A DNA stretch of 63,969 bases, counting the filler, from Collodictyon triciliatum (lineage: Eukaryota): the NCBI GenBank assembly GCA_043381765.1. It is 12 parts of 12 records of this genome, joined end to end, with 100 filler letters (N's around TTAATTAATTAA, not from the genome) between each part and the next. Parts side by side here need not be neighbours in the genome. Positions count along the whole stretch, not along the records: positions 49,467 to 54,316 come from JBHJMP010005770.1; 11 more parts are not named here. One strand, 5' to 3'. The notes under the pieces were generated by a model that was not told the origin of the DNA, searched no databases, and saw nothing but the letters and a program-made list of their open reading frames with translations. Below are positions 40,558-57,400 of this stretch, piece by piece. Both the position numbers and the translations under genes were made by a program. The stretch's first letter is position 1. Each line of letters opens with the position of its first letter.

Positions 40558-42085
40558 NNNNNNNNNNNNNNNNNNNNNNNNNNNNNNNNNNNNNNNNNNN
40601 NTTAATTAATTAANNNNNNNNNNNNNNNNNNNNNNNNNNNNNNNNNNNNNNNNNNNNAAAAAAAAAAAAAAAAGCCAAAGCGAAACAAAACGAAAAGAAA
40701 GGAAAGGAAAAAGAAGAAAAGAAAAGAAAAGAAAGGGAAAAGAAGGGAAAAGAAGAGAATAGAAAAGGAAAGAAAAGGAAAGAAAAGAAAAGGAAAGAAA
40801 AGGAAAGAAAAGAAAAGAAAAGAAAAGGAAAGGAAAAAAGAAAAGAGGAAACAAAAACGAGAGAGAGAAAGGAAAGAGAGAAATATTGGGAATCGAAAGA
40901 AAACTTCATGCCTACAGAACGAAAAGATTAATTAAAAATAATTAAAAAAAAAAACGGTGATATGTGTTTCGAAATTTGAATCACTTGCAAAAATGCCAGA
41001 AATAAAGAGACACTGCCAGTGTTTCTTCCGTTACATCGCAACGAGTTTGAAAGTATGGGACTAAACACAGCGCTCTTAATCCGTTTGTGTTTGTTTAGGT
41101 CAAGCTCAGTTTTCTTCTCGTTTTTTTTCTTTCTAATCTTTTTAATCGGCTCAGGCTATTTAGAATCATTCAACTCGCCAGCTGGAGGGCGATGTAACCC
41201 TACATCTCCTCAAAATATAAAGTTTAAATCAATATATCTGCAAATTGCATCGAGGGGAGGTATCTAAAAGTAAAAGAAATACAGCGAAAGAGTGTGATTT
41301 TTATCATTCGTTTAAGTTTATACAGTTGTGTATAGATTGGCTTCAAAATATATGGTGATGTGCCGACGTTTTACTCTCGAATCAACCATGAGAGTGCCAG
41401 AGCGAGTTGCATTTTTATTCTTGTTCTATCTTTGTTGCTTGTTTTTTTTTTTTTTTACCAATCCATTCGGAATAATACGATGGTGTTTGGCTGGCTCTTA
41501 GTTCTCCAATATGAAATGGATTTTGAAGCCAACAGGTGAAATTGGAGAGTTTGTAATTTTATTTCAATAAAGGCATGCGTTGAGTAGAAAGATGAGAAAA
41601 GGAAAAGCTGAGAAAGAGACAACGTAAGTCAGTTCCTTGGACACGAAGGTGGGAAGTGACGTGAAATCCTTCGTTGCATGTATTTCACTGCAGCTGCAGT
41701 CTCTAGGCGTTTCATCCGTATGTGTTGAAGGGTCTAATCCTAACATCTTTCAATGTTATGTGCTAATCTTTATCCTTTGTGGGCGGAACTATTTTATATC
41801 ACTTGTTAGTTCTATCTTTGCCGATTATTTGGCTGGGCTGTCATCTTCTCAACTACTTTTTTTTCGGAATCCCACAGAGCACTTAATTTTGTAGAGATAA
41901 TACATCGAAGGAATATCCCTCAGCGGCAGAAAGTCGCTCGAAACTATCATTTGTGTCTGATTAATTATCCGTAGATTAAAATCAATATTCCGTGTATTTT
42001 TGCTTTCAAGAACCACAGAAATATGCTACTTCTCTTTTTCAACATCATCTGTCGTTTATTCGGGGTATATCCAATGATATTATAT

Positions 42086-42188
42086 GTGTTGTGTTGTGTT
42101 GTGTTGTGTTGTGTTGTGTTGTGTTGTGTTGTGTTGTGTTGTGTTGTGTTGTGTTGTGTTGTGTTGTGTTGTGTTGTGTTGTGTTGTT
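42086..42188. repeat. (GTGTT)n microsatellite
   Basis: Visible directly. Confidence 0.95.
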
Positions 42189-42256
42189 TTATGGCCCATG
42201 AAACTTTTACTGACGATTACAGGGTGAATATTGCTGGTAGAAAATGATGCCAGCCG

Positions 42257-45255
42257 TCAGAAGGGAACCATCTTAACAAGAATCCCGTATACTAGAATAC
42301 CTGGAGACTCTTCTGTGTAGTACTCAAGACTCGAGTTTGGGATATTTGGGTCTATTATAGAGTCACCTACACGATAGCAAAATAACGTATGTGATACAAC
42401 AATCTTCGAGAGAAGCCTTACGAAATTCGTACATGCGCTTTGGATATTGTGGTTTGTAGAAATAAAGGGAAAATGGAGACAGAGATGTAAAGAAAAAAGC
42501 ATAGAAACAAAAATGGAAATGGCAAGAAAAAAAAAGAGAAAGAAAAACAAATTTTAAAAACCATTCCCAAAGGTTTCTTGTCCTATTTTATAAGACCCAG
42601 GCCTCTGTCTTGTTTGGAAAACAAACTGAACTTTCAGCCTGATGGAAGGGTCTGTGGCACACTGCCATACGGTGGGCACAGCATATCTATCATCCGAGGA
42701 GTAAATAATGGAGGGACTGGTGAATATGTTGTTGGGATTAAATTCCTCCATCTCTCCGGTGTGTTTGTTCATCCGATTCCAGCTGTTTGCGATATGTCCT
42801 TCTTGAATCTCACATCGACCTCCTCCCAAGGGAACATCACCAGGTTTTAACAACCTTTTCCCTCCGGCAATAATCTTTTTGACACCTTGCGCATTTGTCC
42901 CGTGGAATGAATTGTGCCAGGTCTCAAAGACTTTGTTATGTTTTACAAACCCATGGTCTACAGACAACCCAAGTCTCGACCACCCGGCAGGCAAAATGTA
43001 TATTGCCGGAGGAGAACCTCTGGTGTCGACAATATTTGGATTTCCGGTAGTCTCAAAGCAGCTTATGCAAAAGCATCTGTCAAAATACGGGTCGAAATGT
43101 TCCTGCGGAAATGACCCCAACAACTCAGATAATATGTTTTTGGCTGTTAAGAACTCAGGACAACCTAAAATATGAACACTAGTCTTTACCATTGCAGTTG
43201 TTAACTCAAAAAAGAAAATGAGCGCAACCCAAAAAAAAAATATTATTATGAACTGCATTTCCTGATATTTCTTGAGTTTTGATGATACGAGGCGTTGGAA
43301 AGGAGGGGGATAAGTAAGAATAAGAATAGAGATTTCCAAAATCCAAATAAATTTAGTGGGAATATGATCGGATTCGTAAAGCATACCTATGTCGCGTGGT
43401 GCTTTGGTACGTCTAACATCTTCGGGGCTCAAAGCAGTTTTTAAGAATGTATCAGAGATATCAGTTATTGGATCAGGGATATCCTCCAATCGGAGATTCC
43501 GAAGCGACTCAGCAATTGTTTTGGTCGACTTTTCAGATGGCTTTGACTTACAAGACCAACAAGGTAACTGAGAAATTCCTACAGGAGCACTCTTGATATA
43601 GACCTTTCCGCTGTGCTCTATAACGAGAGTCTCTAGTTTGTTCAATCGTGTGACCAGTTGAGGCAGCCGAGAAATCTGTAGACGGTTGTATGTGAGTTTA
43701 GTAGCAATCTTGACACAGTCAAAGTTGTCACCCTTCACTTCTGAGATGTTATCATAACAGTGCCATCGAGAAAATAGAGGATTTCATTGTATGTCCATAT
43801 CATCACGATGCTTATTGGCCGTATATAGTCCAGCCCTGAAGACATCACATATAAATGCTCGGTTCAAGAATGGCTTGTTTTGAAGAAATAATAATGTAGA
43901 GATGTTTCATATTACATATACATACATACATACATACATACATACATACATACATACATACATACATACATACATACATACATACATACATACATACATA
44001 CATACATACATACATACATACATNNNNNNNNNNNNNNNNNNNNNNNNNNNNNNNNNNNNNNNNNNNNNNNNNNNNNNNNNNNNNNNNNNNNNNNNNNNNN
44101 NNNNNNNNNNNNNNNNNNNNNNNNNNNNNNNNNNNNNNNNNNNNNNNNNNNNNNNNNNNNNNNNNNNNNNNNNNNNNNNNNNNNNNNNNNNNNNNNNNNN
44201 NNNNNNNNNNNNNNNNNNNNNNNNNNNNNNNNNNNNNNNNNNNNNNNNNNNNNNNNNNNNNNNNNNNNNNNNNNNNNNNNNNNNNNNNNNNNNNNNNNNN
44301 NNNNNNNNNNNNNNNNNNNNNNNNNNNNNNNNNNNNNNNNNNNNNNNNNNNNNNNNNNNNNNNNNNNNNNNNNNNNNNNNNNNNNNNNNNNNNNNNNNNN
44401 NNNNNNNNNNNNNNNNNNNNNNNNNNNNNNNNNNNNNNNNNNNNNNNNNNNNNNNNNNNNNNNNNNNNNNNNNNNNNNNNNNNNNNNNNNNNNNNNNNNN
44501 NNNNNNNNNNNNNNNNNNNNNNNNNNNNNNNNNNNNNNNNNNNNNNNNNNNNNNNNNNNNNNNNNNNNNNNNNNNNNNNNNNNNNNNNNNNNACATACAT
44601 ACATACATACATACATACATACATACATACATACATACATACATACATACATACATACATACATACATACATACATACATACATACATACATACATACAT
44701 ACATACATTCATAGATTCATAGATTCATGAAACTGTTGGCACACTCACCGGGTTTGAAGAGACGTCTAGATGACACAGGTCGGCGAGCGAGGACAACTCT
44801 GCAGGCAGAGCACTCAAGCGATTGCACGAGAGGTCCAGGTGGCGGAGCCTCTTGAGGCAGCCGATGTCAGGCGAGAGATACTCGATCGTGTTCTCTGCCA
44901 GAAACAGATGCACCAGCGCCGTGAGGGCGTAGAGTTCAAACGGGAGCCACAAGATCTTGTTTCCGCTCAAGTTGAGGAGGTGAAGAGCCGAGAGCCTCGA
45001 GAGGACCTTGGGCAAGCTGGTGAGGCAGTTTTTGCTTGCGTCCAGAGCACCCAGACTCGTCAGCACAGAGAGCCCGGCGGGGAGGCTCATGATCAGGTTA
45101 TCGGAAAGCAGCAGTACCTTCAGATCGCCCAGCCGCGTGACCTCCTCAGGCACTTGGAAAAGCGACGCCCCCACCTGCACATACCTGGCGCTGCTCTCCT
45201 TGTCTCTCCCCCGCCTAGTGCGCCCGCCCGTCGGCCCTCTGCTTGACTCAGCCAT
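42257..45255 (-). CDS. LRR protein fused to a NEURL4-type ADP-ribosyltransferase domain. Exons 45255-44749, 43675-43387, 43164-42562, 42366-42257 (about 502 aa if no exon is hidden in the gap)
   Basis: Exon 1 encodes about five 23-aa LRRs ending DVSSNP|GTGAGT. Exon 2 encodes the last LRR and cap. Exons 3-4 read CFCISC...RGSPPAIYILPAGWSRLGL...WHNSFHGT...IFTSPSIIYS...QFVFQTRQRPGSY...IDPNIPNSSLEYYTEESPGILVYGILVKM, colinear with the NEURL4 C-terminal ART domain. Exon lengths sum to 1509 nt, in frame. Confidence 0.82.
43915..44708. repeat. (CATA)n microsatellite spanning a scaffold gap (N 44024-44592) inside intron 1 of the LRR-ART gene
   Basis: Same repeat on both sides of the gap. Confidence 0.9.
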
Positions 45256-45932
45256 CGCGTCTCGCCACCGGGAGTCCTAATCGCGGCGCAACACGGATCG
45301 GATAGGGATGTGCGCACGGTTTGACAGTTTTGAAAGTCATACATCAGAGCCTGGTTTGCTTGCCCTTTTCTGGTGTGGGCGGCGTTGTGTATGCGCTCCG
45401 CACCCATGAGTGCTTCATCGCCAGCATGATTGACATTATAGCCAAGTTAGCACCTTGCGCCGTGTCCCAGCAGGTTTTCGTCCGTGGCTGGAATCGCTCA
45501 CTGCCGCTATTTGGGAGCGACGACTCGACTTTCGTTCACCTCTCCTCGCCTTCTTTATTGAATGTTTCTTTTGAATCTGGATTGTGAATAGTGGTGGTGG
45601 GGGATAGGTTTAATGCGGCAGGACAGGACAGCCATTGCGGGCCGAGACAGCGGGCATGCGCGTTGGAAGGGCTTTGCGTTCTGGTGGTGTTTATGGGTCC
45701 GATGTGGGGAGAGGCTGCGTCTCCGTCCAGACGAAAGAGTGTGCAGGGACGGCGGCAAGAGTCAAGACGCAGTGCGCACATGCGGGCGGACAAACGGGAT
45801 CTTCGCTTGGCCGCAGGCGGGTGACGTGCACGTGCGGCCAGCGGTGTTTGTTGGGCTTTGTGGATCGGGCATACAAATACAGTCTAGGGCTGGGCTGAAC
45901 TGGGCTGGGCTGAACAGTCTGTGTGGCTGGAG

Positions 45933-46454
45933 TTACTTTGGAACGGCGCCGCAGTGGTGGGCGCTGGCAGCCTGGTGTTTGCCGCAGTAGTGTGCGCCGC
46001 AGCCGCAGGCCGTGGAGTGGAGCGCGAGTCGGGCGTTGCACACTCCGCAGCGCGGCCGGTTGAGCGACTTGCTGGCCCGGGGCTCTTGGATCGTGTCGTG
46101 GGGGAAGTCCTCTGCGAGGGCGGCCGGGGCGTGGGTGGCGGGCCGATCGACAAGCGCGTCGAGGAAGGCGGCAGCCTGGTTGGCAAAGGCAAAGGCCTCC
46201 GGGGTGGTCTGCTGCTGCTGGGCGAGCTTGTCCCACTGGGCATCAATCTGCTTCTGGCTCAGGGGCAGCTGCAGTGTCTGCAGTCTAGGCTTGTGGAGTT
46301 TGCTGATGCGGGTGTAGCAGGTGTTGCAGAAGTGCCCAAACTCCTTGTTGAATTCGGGGTGGTTCGGGCAGTCGGACGTGCAGTCGATGAGTGGGAGGAG
46401 GTAGCGGCTTCCGGTGATCTGGTCCAGGGGGGCGTTCTCGATGAGGGTGTCCAT
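45933..46454 (-). CDS. A20-like + AN1-type zinc finger protein (stress-associated protein/ZFAND type), intronless
   Basis: N-terminal CTSDC...FCNTCY and C-terminal AN1 RCGVCNARLALHSTACGCGAHYCGKHQAASAHHC. Confidence 0.82.
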   Translation of the reverse strand: MDTLIENAPLDQITGSRYLLPLIDCTSDCPNHPEFNKEFGHFCNTCYTRISKLHKPRLQTLQLPLSQKQIDAQWDKLAQQQQTTPEAFAFANQAAAFLDALVDRPATHAPAALAEDFPHDTIQEPRASKSLNRPRCGVCNARLALHSTACGCGAHYCGKHQAASAHHCGAVPK

Positions 46455-47008
46455 TTCGTTGCCGGTTTTTGCTGGGTTCTTTGGTCTTGTGTGGTGTTTC
46501 GGTGGTGTTGCTTGGGGCTGGTGCAGTAAGAGAATGGTGGCGTTGAGAAGACTGGTGCGCGCTTTTCTGTTCTGTATTTTATTTTTCTTGATATATTCTT
46601 CCGTTGCTTACCTTTGGTGTTGCTGGTGTCGTTGGCTGTGTGCTTCGGTCTTCTTGTTAATGATTTTGTGAATAGTGGAGGAAAAAGCCAGAGGTTAAGA
46701 GAATTCGAAATTGTGTACTTATAGGGTTGTGCTCTCTGGGGTGATTCAAATTCATCTCCGACCACATTCACCGGAACGCTCCAACCGAATTTTCTGGACA
46801 GATGCCGTTGTTAATAGACAATTTCTACGAAGTTCTATTTTTGACAATCAAAATTAGGATGACCACACTATAATATATTATTATATTATCATGTCGTAAG
46901 ATTTAATATAAGATTTGCCATTAGAACTTTATTGACAGACTATATAGTTATTGTACAGTAAATTCCATATTTGAAACATATTTTTCTGGAAATACTTCCT
47001 ATTTGGTA

Positions 47009-48722
47009 TCATGAAAACTGCTGCGTATTTGGTGCGAGTTCGCCAGAGCGCAAATAGCAAACAAGTAGCTTTGCTTCTGCCATTACTGTCTTGTAGTCCG
47101 CCCTGTCACGNNNNNNNNNNNNNNNNNNNNNNNNNNNNNNNNNNNNNNNNNNNNNNNNNNNNNNNNNNNNNNNNNNNNNNNNNNNNNNNNNNNNNNNNNN
47201 NNNNNNNNNNNNNNNNNNNNNNNNNNNNNNNNNNNNNNNNNNNNNNNNNNNNNNNNNNNNNNNNNNNNNNNNNNNNNNNNNNNNNNNNNNNNNNNNNNNN
47301 NNNNNNNNNNNNNNNNNNNNNNNNNNNNNNNNNNNNNNNNNNNNNNNNNNNNNNNNNNNNNNNNNNNNNNNNNNNNNNNNNNNNNNNNNNNNNNNNNNNN
47401 NNNNNNNNNNNNNNNNNNNNNNNNNNNNNNNNNNNNNNNNNNNNNNNNNNNNNNNNNNNNNNNNNNNNNNNNNNNNNNNNNNNNNNNNNNNNNNNNNNNN
47501 NNNNNNNNNNNNNNNNNNNNNNNNNNNNNNNNNNNNNNNNNNNNNNNNNNNNNNNNNNNNNNNNNNNNNNNNNNNNNNNNNNNNNNNNNNNNNNNNNNNN
47601 NNNNNNNNNNNNNNNNNNNNNNNNNNNNNNNNNNNNNNNNNNNNNNNNNNNNNNNNNNNNNNNNNNNNNNNNNNNNNNNNNNNNNNNNNNNNNNNNNNNN
47701 NNNNNNNNNNNNNNNNNNNNNNNNNNNNNNNNNNNNNNNNNNNNNNNNNNNNNNNNNNNNNNNNNNNNNNNNNNNNNNNNNNNNNNNNNNNNNNNNNNNN
47801 NNNNNNNNNNNNNNNNNNNNNNNNNNNNNNNNNNNNNNNNNNNATATATATATATATATATATGGGTGATTTATAAAACACGGGATTGCAAATATATCAT
47901 AACTATTATTTTTCAAAAAGCCTGTGATAAGCGGATGTTGGTTATAGTTGCAATTAAGACATAAAAAATAAGGAGATTTGCCTTGAACGTCTGAGCGATC
48001 AAATCACAAGTTTTTAGTCTCTTTGAAGATTCGTCATCAGTTTCTAATGTGAAATGTTCTTCGCCATGACAGGGATAAGTCTCTTCGACACTAACCTCTG
48101 CATAAGTTAGGGGCCTCTTATGGGGGAGATTTGGCTGGGTTTGGGGTTTTACAAATACCACAGGAAGAGACTGAGACATGCATATACTTCTAATGACAGA
48201 TAAAATTGATTTCTATGAGTGAGTGTGATACTTCTGAACCATCTTAAATATTGACCTGATTACAGATAAAAGTAGCATTATGGATTTCAAACATTCTCCA
48301 CTTTTTTTCTTTAGAAAAAGAAACAAAGAAATATCATCAGACATAAGCCATACACGTCGCGCATGGGGTATGTACAATATTTGTCGCCTCTGGCTTGGTT
48401 TCTTTGCTCACAAATCAGCCTCAGATATTCTTTTGAAGGAACAAAGGTGAGCTTCGTTTGAGATTTAGGCTTCCCTGCCTGACTCGCATTGAGCTGTAGA
48501 TGTCAATGTAATTCAGTGTCACAAAACACATGCAGCTTATCGAAAAACAATCCATGCACGTAATTTTGAAAGAGCTATAACAGAAATATATGATACACAT
48601 TAATACGTTCTGGTGTAGCAGGTTTGTTGAGAAGCCCAAAACGGATGTTACTGCGCTCATGTATTCTGGGCCATCAAGTGAGTACACATGGCCATCTTCA
48701 TGAAACTGTGCGATGTTTTCCT
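47009..48722 (-). CDS. Unidentified multi-exon gene, partial, interrupted by gap 47111-47843
   Basis: GT-AG-bounded open stretches (ENIAQFHEDGHVYSLDGPEYMSAVTSVLGF; MSQSLPVVFVKPQ...DLIAQTFK; DRADYKTVMAEAKLLVCYLRSGEL...*). No family recognised. Confidence 0.4.
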
Positions 48723-49094
48723 AAGGTTTGGGCAAATTGAAACTAAAATTAATTTTTTTAAATGTATTTTCAAACATAAGCACTCAAAAAAAAAAAAAAC
48801 GGATAGTTAAAGATATATAGGAGAGGAAGCATTCATCATAAAAAATAAAAAAAAATACTTTCTGCTGATAAAGGATAGAATAGAACTTGTAAAAATATTC
48901 CTCAGTCGGCCGCAGAGTCTGACGAAGGGTTTGATGCTATGACGCGCTCGGCGCGTGGCCGGGTATAAAATTATTTTACAAAGGAAAGCAGAGCGGATTT
49001 TTTCCCCATACTCTTCAAAAGGAGAGAGAAAAATAAGTTCTATGTCGAGTCTGTTTATTATTATCATTTCGAGGTGATAGCAAAAAAAGATTAA

Positions 49095-49366
49095 ATGAAT
49101 AAAAACAAGAAATAAAAAACATAAAATAAAAAACATAAAATAAAAAACATAAAATAAAAAACATAAAATAAAAAACATAAAATAAAAAACATAAAATAAA
49201 AAACATAAAATAAAAAACACAAAATAAAAACCGAGAAATAAAAAACAAGAAATAAAAAAAAAGAAATAAAAAACGAGAAATAAAAAACGAGAAATAAAAA
49301 ACGAGAAATAAAAAACGAGAAATAAAAAACGAGAAATAAAAAACGAGAAATAAAAAACGAGAAATA
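49095..49366. repeat. 14-bp A-rich minisatellite (AAAATAAAAAACAT / GAAATAAAAAACGA)n
   Basis: Visible directly at contig end. Confidence 0.9.
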
Positions 49367-49466: not shown

Positions 49467-51845
49467 CAATCCTCGAAGGCTCTCCACTACGCCGGATGTG
49501 ACGAAATCTGCTTTACACACAACCCTCGAAGGCTCTCCACTATTCCAGATTACGACGAAGTCTGCCTCACACAAGACACACAGAGGCTTTCCACTATGTC
49601 GGAATACGACGCAGTCTGCTTCACACACACAAATCCGCAGAGGCTCTCCACTATGCCGGAATACGACGCAGTCTGCTTCGCGCACGCAACCCTCGAAGGT
49701 TCTCCACTATGCCGGATTACGAAGATGTCTGCTTCACACGCACAACCCTCAAAGGCTCTCTACTGTGCCCGAATACGACGCTGTCTGCTTCACACACAAC
49801 CCTCGAAGGCTCTCCACTATTCCAGATTACGACGAAGTCTGCCTCACACAAGACCCGCAAAGGCTCTCCACTATGCCAGGATGTGACGATGTCTGCTTGA
49901 CACAAGACCCTCGAAGGCCCTCCACTATGCCGGATTACGACGCAGTCTGCTTCGCGCACGCAACCCTCGAAGGCTCTCCACTATGCTGGAATACAACGAA
50001 ATCTGCTTCACACACACAAATCCGCAGAGGCTCTCCACTATGTCGGATGTGACGCAGTCTGCTTCACACACAACCCTCGAAGGCTCTCCACTATGCCGGA
50101 ATGTGACGAAATCTGATTTACACACGACCCTCGAAGGCTCTCCACTATGTCGGATGTGACGCAGTCTGCTTCACGCCACAACCCTCGAAGGCTCCACTAT
50201 GCTGGAATACGACGCAGTCTGCTTCACACACACAAATACTGCTAAGGCTCTCTACTGTGCCCGAATACGACGAAGTCTGCTTCACACAAGACCCTCGAAG
50301 GCTCTCCATTATGCCGGATTACGACGAAATCTGCTTCACACACAACCCTCGAAGGCTCTCCACTATGCTGGAATACGACGCAGTCTGCCTCGCACAAGAC
50401 ACACAACCCTCGAAGGCTCTCCACTATGTCGGATGTGACGAAATCTGCTTCACACAAGACCCTCGAAGGCTCTCCATTATGGCGGATTACGACGAAATCT
50501 GCTTCACACACAACAACCCCCGAAGACTCTCCATTACGCCGTGATTACGACGCAGTCTGCTTCACACAAGACCCTCGAAGGCTCTCCATTATGCCGGATT
50601 ACGACGAAATCTGCTTCACACACAACCCTCGAAGGCTCTCCACTATGTCGGAATACGACGCAGTCTGCTTCACACACGCACAAATACTGCTAAGGCTCTC
50701 CACTATGCCGGATGAGACACAGTCTGCTTCACACATGCAACCCTCGAAGACTCTCCATTATGCCGAGATACGACGCAGTCTGCTTCACACACAACAACCC
50801 CCGAAGACTCTCCATTATGCCAGGAATACGACACAGTCTGCTTCACACACAACAACCCCCGAAGACTCTCCATTACGCCAGAATACGACGCAGTCTGCTT
50901 CACACACGCAAATACTGCTAAGGCTCTCCACTATGCCGAACGTCGACGAAGTCTGCTTCACACATGCAACCCTCGAAGGCTCTCCACTATGTCGGATGTG
51001 ACGAAATCTGCTTCACACAAGACCCGCAAAGGCTCTCCATTACGCCGGAATACGACACAGTCTGCTTCACACACAACAACCCCCGAAGACTCTCCATTAC
51101 GCCAGAATACGACGCAGTCTGCTTCACACACAACAACCCCCGAAGACTCTCCACTATGCCGGAATACGACGCAGTCTGCTTCACACACGCAATCCTGAAA
51201 GGCTCTCCACTATGCCGGAATACGACGCAGTCTGCTCCACACACACAATCCTCGAAGGCTCTCCACCATGCCCGAATACGACGAAGTCTGCCTCGCACAC
51301 ACAACCCTCCAAGGCCCTCCACTATGCCGGGATGTGACGCAGTCTGTTTCACACACAACCCTCGAAGGCTCTCCACTATGCCCGAATACGACGCAGTCTG
51401 CTTCACACACACAAGACATACAGAGGCTCTCCACTATGCCGGAATACGACGCAGTCTGCTTCTCACACACAACCCTCAAAGGCTCTCCACTATGCCGGAA
51501 TACGACGATGTCTGCTTCACAAGACACACAACCCTCGAAGGCTCTGCACTATGCCGGGATGCGACGAAATCTGCTTCACTCAAGACCCGCAAAGGCTGTG
51601 CGTTTGCCGGAATACGACGAAGTCTGCTTCACACACGCAACCCTGAAAGGCTCTCCACTATGCCGGAATACGACGATGTCTGCTTCACAAGGCACACAGA
51701 CACACAGAGGCTCTCCACTATGCCGAACGTCGACGAAGTCTGCTTCACACACAAGACCCGCAAAGGCTCTGCACTATGCCGGACGTCGACGAAGTCTGCT
51801 TCACACACAAGACCCTCCAAGGCTCTCCACTATGCCGGAATACGA
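49467..51845. repeat. Variant-unit minisatellite, about 42 copies of a 53-61-bp unit (consensus AGGCTCTCCACTATGCCGGAATACGACGCAGTCTGCTTCACACACAACCCTCGA)
   Basis: Counted GGCTCTCCACTA-like heads from 49478 to 51821; the array runs off the contig start. Confidence 0.95.
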
Positions 51846-52615
51846 AAACCGTAAGCCTTAAGCAATCAGATATTCTATTTTGCTCTTCGTATTTTGTTTT
51901 GCACTTGCATACACCTAGTCGATGTTTTTGCTATAATTCATATAGAAGGTTTATTCATGCATAAAGCACAAAAATTGAATTTCCCTTGTGAAAATAGTGC
52001 TATGTGTGCAGTTATGTGAAATTCGAAGCCCAATCCGCTGTTTATTGAGCAACAAAGCCGAATTGCGGACACAAAGGGTCTCCACTATGCCGAATACGAA
52101 AGCCGTAAGTCTTAAGCAATCAGATATTCTATTTCCCATCTCTCACTTCGAGCATTTTGTCTTTTTACTCCACACACTTAGTGGATGTTTTTTTTGTTAT
52201 AATTCATATAGAAGGTTTATTCGTGCATAGAGCACAAAAATTGAATTTCCCTTGTGAAAATAGCATTAGGTGTCAGGCTAGGGGAACATTCGAAGCCCAA
52301 TTCCCTGTTTATTGAGCAACAAAGTCGAATCGCGGACAATTCGCAAAGGCTCTCCACTATGCCGAATACGAAAGTCGTAAGTCTTAAGCAATCTGATATT
52401 TTATTTTGCTCTTTACTTCACTTTGAGCATTTTGTTTTTTTACTTGCATACTTAGTCGATGTTTTTTTTTGTTACAATACATATAGAAGGTTTATTCATG
52501 CATAGAGCACAAATAATAAATCTCTCTTGTGAAAATAGTGCATTCTGTGTCCGACTATGGAACATTCGAAGCCCAATACCTTGTTTATTGAGCAACAAAG
52601 TCGAATCGCGGACAC
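51820..52615. repeat. Three tandem copies of a roughly 256-271-bp unit whose head is homologous to the 56-bp unit
   Basis: CTCCACTATGCCG(G)AATACGAAA..CGTAAG.CTTAAGCAATC.GATATT...ATATAGAAGGTTTATTC...TTCGAAGCCCAAT...TGTTTATTGAGCAACAAAG.CGAAT.GCGGACA begins at about 51821, 52077 and 52348. Confidence 0.92.
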
Positions 52616-53382
52616 GAGACTCAGCATATTCCTGTCCACGTGCAGACGTGAAGGACTTCAGGTGAGTATCCCATTTACACACAAACATTTTTATCATTAA
52701 GAGAATCTCTTATTTTCTCCATTATCATTACAACAATTCGAAATACTTAAGCATTTTTTCTGCTTTTCAATAACCAAAGAATCCATAATAAAATCTCAAC
52801 AACCCATTTTCCAATGTGCATTCTCCAGTTTGTGATTGCAGAATTTCGGCCACTCTCCAACCGCAGCGACGCCGGACTTAGCACAAAGAGGCGCATCCGT
52901 GCAGGTGATTCAGGAAACCCAGGAACATGCAGCAACTCCTCCGCACCAACGCGACTCATGTGGCCACCCCCAGTATTCCCAACCATATGGCAATTCCCAG
53001 GTCTTTGGTGACGCCCGGTGACGCACGCGACAAGCACCCGGCTATTCCCAAGACTTTCGATGCAAGAGGTCAACCTTGGCTGTGGCCAACCCCGAACCGG
53101 TGAATTTCCAAGGAAGCACAAGCACACAAGTTCTGCACAAGTCGTCTTCTCGGAAAAATTCGCCGGCCTTTGCGGGATATTTAATGTCGTCTTGTCGAAA
53201 TCCTTGCCCCTCTTTTCTTATTCACAAAGTACTTTATGATCTCCGTGTGCACAACCCCACCATCCTGACTCGAGTGATTCTGTCCTGTGTGATTGTCAAG
53301 TCCGGTCATAAAACAAATAAATGATGTGTATTGTATTGACACCCAGCCAGTCTACCCATATATACAGTCGGAATCTGTCCAG

Positions 53383-54240
53383 ATGTCCGATCACCTCACA
53401 CCTGCCCAAGTGGATGCGCTTTTGGAAGAAGTCCGGATTCTCTCTTACGATCCAATTGCTGATATTGCCAGTCTGAAAAGATCCACATATCTGGATCTCA
53501 GTGAAAAGAATCTGTCATCTGTGCCGCCTGGTGTCTTTTTGTTGACTGGTCTTAAAGAATTGTATCTTAATGGCAATCAGTTGTCATCACTACCTGCACA
53601 AATATCGTGTTTGACTGGTCTCATAGAATTGTATCTTGGTGAAAATAAGCTGTCATCACTACCTGCACAAATATCGTGTTTGACTGGTCTCAGTGTACTT
53701 TATGTTTATGACAATAAGCTCTCATCTCTTCCTGCACAAATATCGTGTTTGACCGGTCTCACATATCTTAATGTTTGTGGCAATAAGTTGTCATCACTAC
53801 CTGCACAAATATCGTGTTTGACTGGTCTCACATATCTTAATGTTTGTTACAATCAGCTGTCATCACTACCTGCACAAATATCATGTTTGACTGGTCTCAC
53901 AGAACTTGATATTTATGTAAATCAGTTGTCATCGCTACCTCCACAAATATCGTGTTTGACTGGTCTCACATATCTTTATGTATTTGACAATCCGGTATGT
54001 TTTTATTCATATATTATTTTATATTTATGTTTAAAAGATAATGACTGACAACGATACACACAGATGGAGGAGCTTCCAGCACAAATCACAGCGCTCACAA
54101 ATCTGAAAAAACTCTGGATAAACTACGGATACACACAAACCATAAAGAGAGCCCCGCGTGGCATCTCAAATCTCCCCTGCTGGAATAACACAGCATACTC
54201 AGACAATAAACGCATCCGCGCTCTGCAGCTCTACGACCCC
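53383..54240 (+). CDS. Intracellular LRR protein with tandem 69-bp repeats. Exons 53383-53994 and 54064-54240; 3' incomplete
   Basis: LTGLxxLxLxxNxLSSLPAQISC repeats (about 7). DNP|GTATGT...CAG|MEELPAQITALTNLKKLWINYGYTQTIKRAPRGISNLPCW...LQLYDP|GTAAGC. Confidence 0.9.
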
Positions 54241-54416
54241 GTAAGCACACATCCACCCCCAACCCCCACATACACAACACAGGACACAACTAACATAACC
54301 CTAGGTCGATACCGCANNNNNNNNNNNNNNNNNNNNNNNNNNNNNNNNNNNNNNNNNNNNTTAATTAATTAANNNNNNNNNNNNNNNNNNNNNNNNNNNN
54401 NNNNNNNNNNNNNNNN

Positions 54417-57400
54417 GATACCATCTATTCACACCTTCGTCATAAACGGTGCATCCAAAAACACCAAACACCTCTCTTGCGACCGAATAGTATATAAAAA
54501 ACAGAAGATTCAATGCGATGAAAACGGCCTGCAATAAAATATTTTTTTTAGAATTACTAAAGATGAAGCTGAAACAATATGGAGATTTACAATTGAATAT
54601 ATTTTTCCATCCTTACTTTGTTCTGCTTGTGTCCATGTCCAAAATAGTACGTGGCTGAGCCAACAACGATAAAGATTGGTATTCTTGCAAAACTGAACAT
54701 CAGAGAAGCAAACACATCGTCTACTCCAAGCACACAGGAAAGGTTAGGAAATTGGATTGAACCAATAGACGATGAAACTTCAATAAAGCTGTTTGCATCT
54801 TCTGAAAGAACGATTCCATTAGACACAATCGACAGTGTTTGCATGTGGAACATTATTATCCTGAGTTTCGCTACAAAAAAATATTCTGATTAATGAAGAA
54901 AGAATCAAGTGAAATAATTTAGTGACATTTACCTGATTTCGATGTCTCTGTGAAATACAGGTAGCAAATGAACATAAAGAATCCAATCGAACCAATAATC
55001 AGGGTTGAATAAATCGTTCCTTTATCGCATTTCACACACGACCTCCCTTGATTTCCGTATCCATTCTGACATTTTGAGCAGGCATTGCCTTCATATCCCT
55101 CTTGACAAAGGTCTGTGATTTCGACCGTCGTATTTGAATTCGAAATTTTCTCTGGAATCGACACATCACATGACTCACGACGTGGACATGGCAGTATTGA
55201 ATTCACAGAGGTAATGCTTGGTGAAGCATGACAGAATTTCAAGGACGTTCCATCAAGGCAATCACATCCTCTTGCGCATTGAACGCAGTTATTTCCAAAG
55301 CCGAAATATCCAGGCAAGCATTTACAAAATTCAAAATCATAATATTCTGGATTCAAGTCAACCTCCAACTCAATTAGACCAGATTTCGAAATAATGGAAG
55401 GACAAATGTAGCGTTTTGATTCGTCTTGGAGATTGAAAGATGTTGTGAAATTCATGAAATCAGGAAGAAAATTAGCTGTTCCGTGATTCATCGATGTTTT
55501 ATTCAATCCCAAATACTCGAGCCTTGAAAACCCGATGTATGATTCAGGAATGCTCCCAACAATCGGATTTCCAGTGATGTCAAGGGAAGTCCATCTCAAT
55601 AGAGTTGTAAGTTCATCAAGCTTAGTGATGTTGTTGTTTTTAAGACTTAATGTTTTTATGTTAAGGACATAGTCAAAAATCAACCAATTCAGTTCCCCAT
55701 AGAGTTGGTTTTCATCAAGCAAAAGGTTTTCATAAAAATAATCAAATTTGCCTGCTTCTGGAACTATGAAAACACTAGCGTCTCCTGAAAAAGAATTATT
55801 TCTCAGATCAATGGTCACTAGATTCGGCAGATTCCAGAATAAATCAGGCATGTTTCCAGAAAATTTATTGTGAGATAAGACGAGTGATTTAAGTTCTAAT
55901 AATCCCTGAAAATAGGTTGGGACTGTGCCGTTCATTTTGTTCCAAGACAAGTCGATGTATTTAATTGAAGGTAATATCCAGTTATCAGGTATAGAGCCAC
56001 TGATTTGGTTTTCACTCACATCCAGTCTTGTCAGGTTATTCAGATTGAACATCGGTAATGAGCCTGACAACTTATTTCGGAATAGCAATATTTCCTTGAC
56101 TTCGTCGCAATATTTGAAATCTGGAACCTCTCCCTCCAACTGATTATCATAAACAGAAAAAATCTCCATTTTACGCATGTATGAGAATTTTGGAATTGTG
56201 CCTAAAATTACTCATTAATATGAAAGGAAATGTAAAATCAAAAGAAATAGAAAGGGAAAATGAGTAGAAATCACCATTTAATCTGTTTCTATCAAGGTAA
56301 ATTCTTTTAACATTTGTAATACCACTGAAGTTTGGAACGGCTCCTGTAATAAAAAGTTAGTTTTGCATCAATATTACATGAAATAACAATTAAACTTACC
56401 ATTCAATTGATTACCGGAAAGATAAATTTCTAAAACATTAGGAATTCCACTGAAGTTTGGAACCGTTCCTGTAATATAAAGTTAGTTTTGTACTTATATT
56501 TTATATATGAAATAATAATTAAAACTTACCATCCAATTGATTGCCGAAAAGAAATATCTCTAGAATATTTGGAATCCCCCTAAAATTTGGAACCATTCCT
56601 GTAATATAAAGTTAGTTTTTCTATGCCATCATATTTAAGTAAACGAAAAACATACCATGAACCTTGCAGCTATAAATTGCAAGAAACTGAACATTCGGCA
56701 ACACTGAGAAGTCAGGAAGAGTTCCTGAAATGGAAAAATCAATAGAATTCAGAAGAAATTATATTAAAAATTACTTTGTACCTGTAATTTTTTCACTTGA
56801 ACCAATCCACATTCTCTTCAGTGACTGTATTCCAGAAAAATCTGGTATTGTTCCTTCCAAAATATTCCCATCAATCTCAAGGTGTTCAATTTCCGGCATT
56901 CCTTGAAAGTCTGGAATCGTTCCTGTAATTTGATTCACAAAGAGATTCAGATACGTTATACTTGGGAGATTAATGTCTGGAGGATTTCCGTAAATGGAGT
57001 TGTAGCTCATGTCCAAGGAATCCAATAACTGAAACTTCTCAAAAATCGCAGAGGCAGCTTCAATGTCACCGTTAAGGTTGTTTCCTGACATACTGATTCT
57101 GAATATGGGACATGTATTGCTCTACAAATATAAAGGAAAATTATTAAAAGTGAAATCAAAAGAGATTACCATCATTTCAAGAAATACCTTATACTCTTCA
57201 TCCGAGCAGCTCTGATGACACGATATTCCATACCAATCACAAATCGGGATACTTTCATTCTTCCATTCAGTGTTCCGAAACCAATCATCGCCGCCAAGTG
57301 AATCGTAAAGTTGGACAAGCAGTTCGTATTGAGTCCCAGTATTTCCATCGGCCACACTTCGGTTTTCTTCGTTCTCTAACCCCCGTTCTCTGTTTCCACT

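What the first reader, a model, noticed from the sequence alone, without database searches (positions are those of the whole stretch)
53383..54240. Second contig carries a paralog of the LRR-ART gene (same intron, same cap): a modular LRR-effector family
Seen: both genes break at a phase-0 intron straight after the last LRR 'NP' (DVSSNP| and YVFDNP|). Both resume with homologous exons: ISRLPQLVTRLNKLETLVIEHSGKVYIKSAPVGISQLPCW...LRNLRLED versus MEELPAQITALTNLKKLWINYGYTQTIKRAPRGISNLPCW...IRALQLYD. This independently supports the splice model across the gap. Inference: two members in 12 effectively arbitrary contigs suggest a large expanded family, in which an LRR exon and a conserved cap exon may be joined to exchangeable C-terminal effectors. 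The effector of this copy lies beyond the contig end.
Basis: partly seen in the sequence, partly recalled or inferred. Interest (0 to 1): 0.75.

Follow-up and report, generated by a model that had tools for sequence, protein, structure and literature searches.

The report
Capped LRR gene family with swappable enzymes
The second contig carries the front part of a true relative of the LRR-ART gene: both belong to a protist gene family in which a leucine-rich-repeat sensor closed by one conserved unit is joined to different enzyme domains.

Summary
Gene B (53383-54240, +) has an ATG, seven 23-residue LRRs ending in NP, a 69-nt GT..AG phase-0 intron, and a 59-codon exon. That exon is homologous to exon 2 of the LRR-ART gene (gene A, minus strand): 19/54 identical, E 9e-11, with a shared IK.AP.GIS.LPCW motif.

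A profile of the two exons found 178 proteins at E<=1e-3 among 1.84 billion representatives. Of the 150 listed, 42 carry the unit. Of 30 looked up, 20 are Diphylleia rotans transcripts, 9 are exon-sized ORFs on short unnamed NCBI contigs with the same exon borders, and 1 is from a metagenome.

Relatives join the LRR-plus-unit module to kinase, Roc-COR, NYN RNase, RING-NHL or SAM domains. Gene A joins it to a probably PARP-like ART domain.

Contigs from an RNA library and two other runs join LRR text to the unit exactly at NP|MEELP.

The "cap" is a degenerate LRR closure. It recurs 2-5 times in many relatives, so it is not always terminal.

Gene B's repeats vary only at seven positions of the xxLxLxxNx stretch, by recall the concave binding face.

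What follows 54240 is unknown. This is a new variant of a known kind (LRR-enzyme fusions such as ROCO).

The parts
52662..52828 (+). Putative intron in the 5' untranslated part upstream of gene B (GTGAGT...CTCCAG, 167 nt)
   Evidence: Splice-site letters are. An RNA-library contig (X5 record 24, 437 nt) lies on 52826-53151. Its 112 further 5' letters resemble, but do not equal, window 52630-52661. Inferred from a relative or paralog, not from this locus.
53383..53994 (+). Gene B exon with the start codon: 52-residue N-terminal part with one looser LRR, then seven 23-residue LRRs, the last one cut after NP
   Evidence: Open frame of 204 aa. Pfam LRR_8 at E 1.6e-34. 69-nt period, 6.5 copies, 84% matches. 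The first in-frame stop upstream is at 53290-53292.
53995..54063 (+). Phase-0 intron, 69 nt, GTATGT...ACACAG
   Evidence: Eight contig joints from three runs link LRR text ending ..AAYCC(G) directly to 54063/54064. cDNA-derived relatives read NP-I.ELP without interruption.
54064..54240 (+). Closure ('cap') exon, 59 codons, phase 0 at both ends. It holds the second half of the last LRR, a short degenerate repeat (INYGYTQTIKRAP), GISNLPCW, and then RIRALQLYDP
   Evidence: It aligns to residues 79-143 of relative P0008, which AlphaFold models at pLDDT 92-97.
54241..54316 (+). Start of a second intron (GTAAGC) or, less likely, a Pro/Thr-rich linker read in frame (VSTHPPPTPTYTTQDTTNITLGRYR). It is cut by the contig end
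   Evidence: 8 of 9 exon-sized paralog ORFs show an in-frame V (GTN) at this spot; 7 of those stop 1-11 codons after it and P0025 stays open. The frame here stays open to the end. A 102-nt contig of run X1 covers 54223-54316 with no difference.
44749..45255 (-). Gene A exon 1: start codon and about six LRRs, ending DVSSNP. GC3 0.77
   Evidence: (LRR_8 at E 4.4e-16).
43676..44748 (-). Gene A intron 1, phase 0, GTGAGT...CTACAG. It holds (ATGT)n on both sides of a 569-N scaffold gap (44024-44592)
   Evidence: The join across the gap is inferred.
43387..43675 (-). Gene A exon 2: closure unit (ISRLPQ...IKSAPVGISQLPCW...IAESLRNLRLED) plus about 30 further residues. It ends in phase 1
   Evidence: best relative is P0014, 52% over 63 aa.
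42562..43164 (-). Gene A exon 3: main part of the PARP-like ART-type domain (WHNSFHGT, IFTSPSIIY)
   Evidence: 11 homologues at E 9e-49 to 4e-24. Alignment A2. All 12 structural matches at Z>=2 are PARP-family catalytic domains. No Pfam family.
42257..42366 (-). Gene A exon 4 with the TGA stop: end of the domain (SLEYYTEE...ILVYGILVK)
   Evidence: Homologues continue with ..ELEWYTKE..GIV..GL.V.. exactly where exon 3 ends. Splice letters are, where the donor GTTTTT is weak.

Best explanation
Gene B is the 5' part of a real member of a lineage-specific family of cytosolic LRR proteins. So far the family is seen in the freshwater flagellate Diphylleia rotans, in short unnamed NCBI contigs and in freshwater samples.

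A block of 23-residue LRRs (LxxLxxLxLxxNxLxxLPxxIxxL) is closed by a conserved unit of about 60 residues. The unit consists of the second half of the last LRR, a shortened repeat in which the Asn is replaced (..IE..G...I.RAP), two short helices on GI[TS].LPCW, a helix (S.SEAL), and a last strand (L.LY). In gene B and its closest paralogs this unit is a separate exon with phase 0 at both ends.

Behind one or several such modules comes a low-complexity linker and an enzymatic or signalling domain that differs between members: kinase, Roc-COR, NYN RNase, RING-NHL or SAM. In gene A it is a PARP-like ADP-ribosyltransferase domain.

Shown: homology, exon borders, the variety of C-terminal domains in relatives, and the ordered fold of the unit in a model of a relative.

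Inferred: the hypervariable positions of the repeats (by recall the concave face) bind a ligand or substrate, and the closure unit plus linker couple this to the C-terminal enzyme. That is either recruitment of a substrate to the enzyme or release of autoinhibition, as proposed for ROCO kinases and bacterial LRR-enzyme effectors (recalled knowledge).
For: Homology:
- The two closure exons share 19/54 residues, E 9e-11.
- A profile of the two gave 178 hits at E<=1e-3, 28 at <=1e-10 and a best hit of 2e-32, in 1.84e9 representatives.
- 42 of the 150 listed hold a stretch covering the IK.AP.GIS.LPCW core at >=15 bits.
- 46 units at >=20 bits, together with the 2 window units, align into one clear consensus.

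Sources: of 30 looked up, 20 are D. rotans transcripts, 9 are unnamed NCBI ORFs on 523-844 bp contigs, and 1 is JGI/IMG.

Exon borders:
- 4 of the 9 NCBI ORFs read Q (CAG) directly before [IM]E.LP, as gene B does.
- 8 of 9 read V (GTN) just after L.L[YF][DEN]; 7 of those stop 1-11 codons later and P0025 stays open.

Splicing: 8 of the 13 listed joints run from LRR text plus letters ending ..CC to 54063. Five are in X3, two in the RNA library X5 and one in X1.

Variety of C-termini: of 28 relatives, 7 carry a kinase, 6 Roc (4 with COR-A), 1 NYN, 1 RING and 13 LRRs only.

Fold: the relative P0008 was modelled at mean pLDDT 86.3. The blocks covering the unit score 92-97, with strands at 94-96, 107-109 and 139-141 and helices at 110-119 and 131-136, and a dip to 79 straight after. 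The best solved look-alikes are LRR proteins (LIC10831 at E 3e-14, SHOC2) at a low TM of 0.34-0.38.

Binding face:
- In gene B repeats 1-6, seven positions (5, 6, 8, 9, 10, 11, 13) carry 81 non-synonymous and 0 synonymous pair differences.
- Fifteen positions are invariant in protein, and eight of these carry the 48 synonymous pair differences. Position 19 has one A-to-P change.
- Of the 10 differences listed in the LRR region for other runs, 8 fall in codons 8, 10 and 11 and change the residue. The other 2 are synonymous.
Against: - Nothing beyond 54316 is known, so this copy may have no effector or may continue with more LRR modules. Paralog P0096 runs on into LRR-like text.
- No joint of gene B's own intron was listed. 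Runs X1 and X3 are only guessed to be RNA, and joints at 90% likeness in mixed samples can come from other organisms.
- A 102-nt exact contig crosses the proposed second donor at 54240/54241. This fits DNA, unspliced RNA or a read-through linker.
- Word-index searches with either closure exon found nothing, and two scans of JGI metagenome contigs found nothing.
- 13 of the 28 relatives show LRRs only, though several are partial transcripts.
- No ligand, substrate or activity has been tested for any member. Invariant scaffold positions with variable x positions are partly what any LRR shows.
Confidence: 0.8

Rival explanations
1. The unit is not a cap before an effector but an internal irregular repeat of long multi-module LRR proteins. 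On this reading gene B simply continues with further LRR blocks and may be an LRR-only scaffold protein.
For: Many relatives hold several units about 130-180 residues apart: P0003 has 5, P0157 has 4, P0005 has 3, and P0004, P0006, P0007, P0008, P0010 and P0015 have 2 each. In the P0008 model, strands go on at LRR spacing after the unit. Paralog P0096 reads ..ITLVDLSYNEVS.. after its unit. 13 of 28 relatives have LRR families only.
Against: Single-unit relatives go straight from L.LY into a linker and an enzyme: P0012 NYN, P0022/P0169 SH3-kinase, P0113 kinase. Gene A does the same. Multi-unit proteins also end in enzymes (P0010 kinase, P0015 RING, P0003 Roc-COR). The two readings are therefore compatible for the family and differ only for this copy.
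Confidence: 0.35
2. Gene B is a dead or fragmentary copy inside repetitive DNA. On this reading the many look-alike contigs reflect a dispersed repeat that happens to contain LRR exons, not a working gene family.
For: The same contig is mostly tandem repeats: a 54-56-nt unit in 42.6 copies at 49467-51845, and a 275-nt unit in 3 copies at 51819-52614. The paralog ORFs sit on very short contigs of 523-844 bp, as is usual where assemblies break in repeats. The upstream non-coding region 52650-53380 is also covered by look-alike contigs.
Against: Both exons have intact frames and canonical splice sites. In the scaffold positions of the repeats all differences are synonymous, while seven positions of the xxLxLxxNx stretch are hypervariable. 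That is a pattern of selection, not decay. Joined forms are present in an RNA library (X5). Relatives are full-length transcripts with enzymes.
Confidence: 0.1
3. The two contigs, or the two halves of gene A's scaffold, come from different organisms or were joined wrongly. On this reading 'LRR-ART' is an assembly artefact and the two copies are not paralogs in one genome.
For: The window is a mixture. Piece 9770-14552 is bacterial, with Por_Secre_tail and IgGFc_binding. Gene A exon 1 has GC3 0.77 against 0.39-0.47 for exons 2-4, and they are separated by a 569-N gap flanked by (ATGT)n. None of the 11 homologues of the ART-type domain shows an LRR. Precomputed Pfam is empty for 9 of them, WD40-type for P0185 and other families for P0192. 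4 were scanned here with no family found.
Against: The same rare unit and the same intron position occur in both contigs. Gene B shows LRR-intron-unit with no gap and with its own GC3 swing from 0.31 to 0.58. The LRR register runs on across gene A's junction (NP|I.RLP..V..L..L..L.I), as in cDNA-derived P0014. The same microsatellite lies on both sides of the gap, which fits an unresolved repeat. Gene A's unit is physically linked to the ART exons without any gap.
Confidence: 0.1

Closest known systems
ROCO / LRRK-type proteins (LRR - Roc - COR - output domain)
   Same: The same class of 23-residue LRRs sits N-terminal to an enzymatic output. Five clusters of unit-bearing relatives carry Pfam Roc, four of them with COR-A (P0003, P0024, P0080, P0086; P0011/P0164 has Roc only), some with DUF4062 and AAA_16.
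   Different: Gene A has no Roc or COR and other members carry kinase, NYN or RING without Roc. The LPCW closure unit matches no Pfam family above cut-off. It matched solved structures only through generic LRR likeness.
SHOC2, RSU1 and Leptospira LIC LRR proteins (solved structures)
   Same: These are the best sequence-profile and fold matches of the LRR part. RSU1 residues 79-119 align through the unit, showing that it derives from an LRR.
   Different: They have regular solenoids without the GI[TS].LPCW motif and without a fused enzyme. Superposition on the P0008 model is poor (TM 0.34-0.38, rmsd 9-11 A over about 260 columns), so the unit breaks the regular curve.
NEURL4 C-terminal ART domain (predicted by de Souza and Aravind 2012, as cited in PMC8932523; activity reported in PMC8932523)
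   Same: Gene A's domain family has FHGT, IFTSPS and ELEWYT. The table in PMC7955679 gives HGS, LLS and ELE for NEURL4 (passages read). One homologue is named a SPRY domain protein. All 12 structural matches are PARP-family domains.
   Different: No NEURL4 sequence was compared here. The N-terminal partner is LRR plus closure unit instead of neuralized repeats. The model is poor (pLDDT 55.7) and Z is only 2.2-4.1.
LRRC9 (LRR - ART-like - LRR; PMC7955679, passages read)
   Same: It is a precedent for LRRs and an ART-type domain in one eukaryotic protein, with the idea that a bound 'bait' switches the ART domain on.
   Different: In LRRC9 the ART-like domain is nested between two LRR blocks and has a divergent Y-V-K site. 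In gene A it is C-terminal and keeps H..E-type motifs. No sequence comparison was made.
Bacterial LRR-enzyme effectors of the IpaH/SspH type and NLR/STAND receptors (recalled, not tested)
   Same: The working principle is the same: an LRR surface picks the target or ligand and controls a linked catalytic or signalling domain.
   Different: IpaH-type proteins are bacterial and carry one fixed ligase domain. NLRs have the LRRs at the C-terminus behind a STAND NTPase. Neither has this closure unit as far as the searches here show.

Membership tests
LPCW-closed LRR family (Diphylleia-type LRR-enzyme proteins; no published name found) | N-terminal block of 23-residue LRRs of the LxxLxxLxLxxNxLxxLPxxIxxL type | tested here: met
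   Gene B exon 1 matches LRR_8 at E 1.6e-34 and holds seven repeats. Gene A exon 1 matches LRR_8 at E 4.4e-16.
LPCW-closed LRR family (Diphylleia-type LRR-enzyme proteins; no published name found) | Closure unit ..LP..IT.L..L..L.I....G...I.[RK]AP.GI[TS].LPCW.. followed by ..L.L[YF] | tested here: met
   Both window units align over the full length with 46 units of relatives. Each scores 81-82 bits against the family HMM, which includes them. The independent profile search is.
LPCW-closed LRR family (Diphylleia-type LRR-enzyme proteins; no published name found) | Phase-0 intron between NP and [IM].ELP (genomic members) | tested here: met
   Genes A and B show it. 4 of 9 exon-sized NCBI ORFs read CAG (Q) directly before [IM]E.LP.
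LPCW-closed LRR family (Diphylleia-type LRR-enzyme proteins; no published name found) | C-terminal enzymatic or signalling domain behind a linker | not testable with these tools
   Gene B's contig ends at 54316 and no genome is held. Gene A meets the feature.
ROCO proteins | Roc GTPase followed by a COR domain | tested here: not met
   Gene A exons 3-4 match no Pfam family. For gene B the downstream part is unknown. Some relatives do meet it.
PARP-like (H-Y-E clade) ADP-ribosyltransferases, NEURL4-like branch (gene A only) | ART fold | tested here: inconclusive
   The model has pLDDT 55.7. Foldseek gave no match at E<=0.001, and its top two matches are PARP1 at E 4.6 and 5.9. VIA-align found 12 of 48,161 chains at Z>=2, all 12 of them PARP-family catalytic domains; the best is PARP4 at Z 4.1, rmsd 5.2, 112 aligned.
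PARP-like (H-Y-E clade) ADP-ribosyltransferases, NEURL4-like branch (gene A only) | Conserved His (HG[ST]) and acidic residue (ELE) motifs | tested here: met
   H87-G88-T89 are invariant in 12 sequences. ELEWYT is conserved in the homologues and reads LEYYTEE in exon 4. NEURL4's motifs are taken from PMC7955679. Which residues are catalytic is inferred.
LRRC9 family | ART-like domain nested between N- and C-terminal LRR blocks | tested here: not met
   Gene A ends 35 residues after exon 3 with a stop codon, and no LRR follows.
NLR / STAND receptors | Central NACHT/NB-ARC NTPase with C-terminal LRRs | tested here: not met
   The LRRs are N-terminal in both genes, and gene A has no NTPase domain. 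Two relatives carry AAA_16 behind Roc-COR.

The most novel reading that the evidence does not exclude
The family is a lineage-specific, rapidly diversifying repertoire of cytosolic recognition proteins in collodictyonid-like protists. It would be an innate-immunity-like or prey/self-discrimination system built independently of NLRs. Hypervariable LRR faces act as the sensors. A dedicated closure exon with phase 0 at both ends acts as a universal adaptor, letting exon shuffling attach the sensor to many outputs: ADP-ribosylation, phosphorylation, GTPase switches, RNA cleavage and ubiquitylation.
Probability: 0.3. Interest if true: 0.7.

Novelty: new variant of a known kind. Interest (0 to 1): 0.5.

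Why it matters
LRR-enzyme fusions are the backbone of signalling and immune receptors in plants, animals and amoebae (ROCO kinases, NLRs, receptor kinases).

This family offers three things. First, it comes from one of the least studied deep branches of eukaryotes. Second, its junction element is conserved, structurally ordered and encoded by its own symmetric exon, yet it matches no Pfam model and no solved structure beyond generic LRRs. Third, its members combine one sensor type with at least six different outputs, including a PARP-like ART. The 11 homologues found for that ART domain show no LRRs.

Together this gives a natural experiment on how sensor and output modules are recombined. It also gives a concrete handle, the unit's HMM, for cataloguing such genes in protist genomes and freshwater metagenomes.

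Tried and rejected
Tools that were closed or empty:
- Whole-genome scan: no genome is held.

Searches that found nothing useful:
- Word-index protein searches with gene A's and gene B's closure exons among longer proteins: no hit at E<=0.01.
- JGI metagenome contigs: two scans. 479 and 109 pattern matches, none confirmed by tblastn. One alignment was too loose to give a pattern.
- Prokaryote genome contigs: one 17-residue match in a Paludibacteraceae MAG (L001, 76% identity). I take it as chance.
- Rfam over the whole window: no family.
- PDB by sequence for gene A exon 3 and its profile: nothing meaningful, only paxillin at E 6.5.
- Foldseek with the poor ART model: nothing at E<=0.001.
- BLASTP of the LRR exons against the fetched proteins picks generic LRR proteins, so it does not help to pair exon 1 with exon 2 of gene A.

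Sequencing runs:
- No run holds half of the words. The best holds 0.26.
- The freshwater habitat labels of small-share runs are not used as evidence.
- Run X1 has no cover over intron 1 (53994-54049).
- The summed depths of about 900-1500 over the closure exon are not used as a copy number.
- No joint for gene B's own intron was listed, and no loose end at 54240 was among those shown (31 were not shown).

Considered and dropped:
- A 43-nt second intron (54241-54283, ending ACACAG) with a next exon DTTNITLGRYR. The resemblance to ..NENITD..LI..W.. of relatives is too thin.
- A tree of closure units labelled by effector type was not built. Seventy columns would not resolve it.
Full report
**Setting.** The window is twelve pieces of about 4.8-8.7 kb separated by artificial N44-TTAATTAATTAA-N44 spacers. 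Most pieces look eukaryotic: short GT..AG introns, microsatellites and AT-rich spacers. One piece (9770-14552) is bacterial, with a T9SS sorting domain and an IgGFc_binding domain, so the source is a mixture. No whole genome is held for the window.

**The observation.**
- Gene B starts with ATG at 53383. The nearest in-frame stop upstream is at 53290-53292.
- 53383-53994 encodes 204 residues: a 52-residue N-terminal part and seven 23-residue LRRs, ending ...LTYLYVFDNP. GTATGT follows.
- After 69 nt, ACACAG precedes a 59-codon exon (54064-54240) reading MEELPAQITALTNLKKLWINYGYTQTIKRAPRGISNLPCWNNTAYSDNKRIRALQLYDP. GTAAGC follows that.
- Gene A lies on the minus strand of piece 40658-49366. Exon 1 (45255-44749) ends ..LDVSSNP before GTGAGT. 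Exon 2 (43675-43387) starts ISRLPQLVTRLNKLETLVIEHSGKVYIKSAPVGISQLPCW after CTACAG. Both introns are phase 0.
- BLASTP of the second exons gives 19/54 identities, E 9e-11. The LRR exons give 56/141 identities, E 9e-27.

**Is it more than LRR likeness?**
- The first 20 residues of the second exon are the back half of an ordinary LRR. The rest (..I....G...IK.AP.GIS.LPCW...L.L.D) matches no Pfam family; both exons only graze LRR_14 at E 0.06-0.11, far under its cut-off.
- A two-sequence profile (A1) was run against 1.84 billion representative proteins. It gave 178 hits at E<=1e-3, 28 at <=1e-10 and a best hit of 2e-32.
- A local hmmsearch shows that 42 of the 150 listed hits have a stretch covering the core motif at >=15 bits. 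The other hits match only through the LRR half.
- Forty-six such units at >=20 bits align with the two window units into one consensus: NP-[IM].ELP..IT.L..L..L.IE..G...[IV].[RK]AP.GI[TS].LPCW.N..KP...M..S.SEAL..L.LY.
- In the six-frame translation of the window only these two units score, at 81-82 bits.

**Who has it.**
- Thirty unit-bearing representatives were looked up. Twenty are Trinity transcripts of Diphylleia rotans in EukProt. Nine are unnamed NCBI ORFs on contigs of 523-844 bp. One is a JGI/IMG metagenome ORF.
- The nine NCBI ORFs are exon-sized (68-121 aa) and are the closest relatives of gene B's exon, at 41-57% identity.
- Four of them read Q (CAG) directly before [IM]E.LP, as gene B does.
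- Eight of them read V (a GTN codon) one to three residues after L.L[YF][DEN]. Seven of those stop 1-11 codons after it; P0025 stays open.
- These are the same two exon borders as in gene B, both in phase 0. I cannot show that these contigs are from the window's own assembly.
- The window's genes have no near-identical D. rotans protein among those fetched. The best are 52% for gene A's unit and 47% for gene B's. So the source is a relative of the sequenced D. rotans strain, or these are simply different paralogs.

**Splicing.**
- Public runs hold at most 0.26 of the words of 52840-54316.
- Four runs were laid at 90% likeness: 123 contigs for X1, 7 for X2, 194 for X3 and 23 for X5.
- Eight of the 13 listed joints link LRR text, plus 1-27 unaligned letters ending in ..CC, directly to 54063/54064. 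Five are in X3, two in X5 and one in X1. Read in frame, the longer ones end AAC CCG or AAT CCG (Asn-Pro) directly before ATG GAG GAG.
- X5 is an RNA-Seq metatranscriptome. X1 and X3 are only guessed to be RNA.
- The eight junction sequences all differ from each other. They therefore stem from several paralogs or close relatives in which LRR and unit are joined exactly where the model predicts.
- Gene B's own joint (53994|54064) was not listed.
- cDNA-derived relatives read straight through NP-I.ELP.

**What comes behind.**
- Pfam on 28 unit-bearing relatives gave these results. A protein kinase in 7 (5 clusters; P0022/P0169 also have SH3). Roc in 6 (5 clusters), four of them with COR-A and some with DUF4062 and AAA_16. 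Zc3h12a NYN RNase in 1. RING in 1, with an NHL repeat at E 1.4e-4. LRRs only in 13, of which P0008 has a weak SAM match at E 0.0018.
- The N-terminal module of SAM-ended P0008 is 42% identical to kinase-ended P0162, 37% to kinase-ended P0017 and 31% to RING-ended P0015. One module type therefore precedes different outputs.
- Gene A's output domain (exons 3 and 4) has 11 homologues at E 9e-49 to 4e-24. They come from bdelloid rotifers, Reticulomyxa ('SPRY domain containing protein'), a WD40 fusion and unnamed sources. No LRR family is listed for any of them.
- The alignment confirms the exon 3 to exon 4 splice. It shows invariant WH.SFHGT and FTSPS and conserved ELEWYT.
- Its AlphaFold model is poor, at pLDDT 55.7. 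Foldseek gave nothing at E<=0.001, with PARP1 on top at E 4.6.
- In an all-against-model VIA-align search, all 12 of the 48,161 chains with Z>=2 are PARP-family catalytic domains, with Z 2.2-4.1.
- The motifs resemble those tabulated for NEURL4 (HGS, LLS, ELE) in PMC7955679 (passages read). NEURL4's ART activity is reported in PMC8932523 (passages read).
- The label 'LRR-ART' is therefore probably right, but the fold test is formally inconclusive.

**What the unit is.**
- A PDB profile search finds only generic LRR proteins. RSU1 residues 79-119 align through the unit (..L..L.L..N.L..LP.GF..LP against ..L..L.I..G...I.RAP.GI..LP). The unit is therefore a degenerate LRR.
- The relative P0008 was modelled with 15 family members at mean pLDDT 86.3 and pTM 0.53. 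Residues 91-140 score 92-97.
- The model has strands at 94-96, 107-109 and 139-141, only 13 and then 32 residues apart instead of 23. Two short helices lie on GITALPCW and one helix on SISDSL. Confidence dips to 79 right behind, and regular LRRs resume after that.
- Solved LRR proteins align over about 260 columns, but at TM 0.34-0.38 and rmsd 9-11 A. The unit therefore interrupts the regular curve.
- Gene B's second exon corresponds to residues 79-143 of P0008. It is exactly this closure element.
- Many relatives hold 2-5 units about 130-180 residues apart. 'Cap' is thus apt for single-unit members such as gene A, P0012 and P0022, but in others the unit closes each of several LRR modules.

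**Gene B's repeats.**
- The 69-nt repeats are 84% alike.
- Among repeats 1-6, fifteen of 23 positions are invariant in protein, and eight of these show synonymous differences (48 pair differences). Position 19 has one A-to-P change.
- Positions 5, 6, 8, 9, 10, 11 and 13, the xxLxLxxNx stretch, carry 81 non-synonymous and no synonymous pair differences.
- By recall, not from any call here, these positions are the solvent-exposed ones on the concave side of LRR proteins.
- Ten differences were listed in the LRR region between the window and contigs of other runs. Eight change codons 8, 10 or 11 and two are synonymous in codons 4 and 14. Forty-seven further differences were not shown.
- This is the pattern expected of a binding surface under diversification on a conserved scaffold. 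No formal test was possible.

**How it most likely works (inferred).** The LRR face binds a partner. The closure unit seals the hydrophobic core and ends the module. A low-complexity linker then leads to an enzyme that acts on, or is switched by, what the LRRs hold. This is the logic proposed for ROCO kinases, for LRRC9 (PMC7955679) and for bacterial LRR-ligase effectors (recalled). Because the closure exon is symmetric, with phase 0 at both ends, in gene B and at least three paralogs (P0013, P0021, P0029), exon shuffling is a plausible route to the observed variety.

**Open points.**
- The 76 bases after 54240 are either an intron start or a Pro/Thr-rich linker. GTAAGC and the paralog pattern favour an intron. 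For a linker, the frame is open to the end, relatives such as P0006 read ..LTLFDPAAFVHPPVSAS.. here, and an exact 102-nt contig of X1 crosses the site. I put the intron at about 0.7.
- Whether an effector, more LRR modules or nothing follows is unknown.
- Gene A's exon 1 is joined to exon 2 only across an N gap, with a GC3 jump from 0.77 to 0.39. Gene B, P0014 and the LRR register make the join likely but do not prove it.

**Novelty.**
- Searches of the held library for Diphylleia rotans with 'leucine-rich repeat' found 0 papers.
- Collodictyon with 'leucine-rich repeat' found 1 paper, on dynein.
- Diphylleia with LRR and kinase found 0 papers.
- For Diphylleia rotans with genome, none of the 12 listed of 50 papers concerns this family, judging by title and abstract.
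- Subscription journals and supplements were not searchable.
- LRR-enzyme fusions are a well-known kind. New here are the closure unit, its exon, the breadth of outputs in one lineage and the LRR-unit-ART member. I rate it a new variant of a known kind, of moderate interest.

Noticed in passing
window 9770-14552: This piece is bacterial, not eukaryotic. It has long uninterrupted minus-strand ORFs with fn3/Ig-like repeats, a Por_Secre_tail (T9SS) sorting domain and an IgGFc_binding domain. Two very similar long ORFs (10838-13003 and 12898-14604) lie in tandem. The source assembly is therefore a mixture.
   Followed up: partly
window 49467-52614: Upstream of gene B lies a 54-56-nt tandem array of 42.6 copies (49467-51845), followed by three 275-nt units (51819-52614) that share the core CTCCACTATGCCGAATACGA. 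The stretch after the last unit ends in a GTGAGT donor (52662). An RNA-library contig of a relative appears to use it, spliced to 52829.
   Followed up: partly
window 44593-47110 versus 40658-44023: There is a sharp composition step across the scaffold gap inside gene A. Exon 1 and the neighbouring Cys/His-rich ORF (45939-46454, minus strand, no Pfam family) have GC3 0.77 and 0.64. Exons 2-4 have 0.39-0.47. (ATGT)n runs flank the 569-N gap on both sides.
   Followed up: partly
window 35633-39753: A very long open frame holds 17 Ephrin_rec_like cysteine-rich repeats (E 6e-137) followed by hydrophobic, membrane-like segments. It looks like a giant repeat-rich surface protein.
   Followed up: no
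window 54922-56211 (minus strand): This is a different LRR gene on the next piece. It has 24-residue plant-type LRRs (..L.G.IP..), then a cysteine-rich EGF-like stretch and a hydrophobic segment, with no LPCW unit. It is a receptor-like architecture unrelated to the family studied.
   Followed up: no
proteins P0182-P0192 (homologues of window 42563-43162, minus strand): The closest relatives of gene A's ART-type domain are in bdelloid rotifers (Adineta, Rotaria), Reticulomyxa and unnamed environmental sources. Their N-terminal parts are quite different, and none lists an LRR. This patchy spread invites a check for horizontal transfer.
   Followed up: no
proteins P0003, P0024, P0080, P0086 (Diphylleia rotans): Large ROCO-type relatives combine 1-5 LPCW-closed LRR modules with Roc and COR-A. 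P0003, P0080 and P0086 add DUF4062; P0024 and P0086 add an AAA_16 (STAND-like) NTPase. Domain sets of this kind are typical of conflict or immunity proteins.
   Followed up: no
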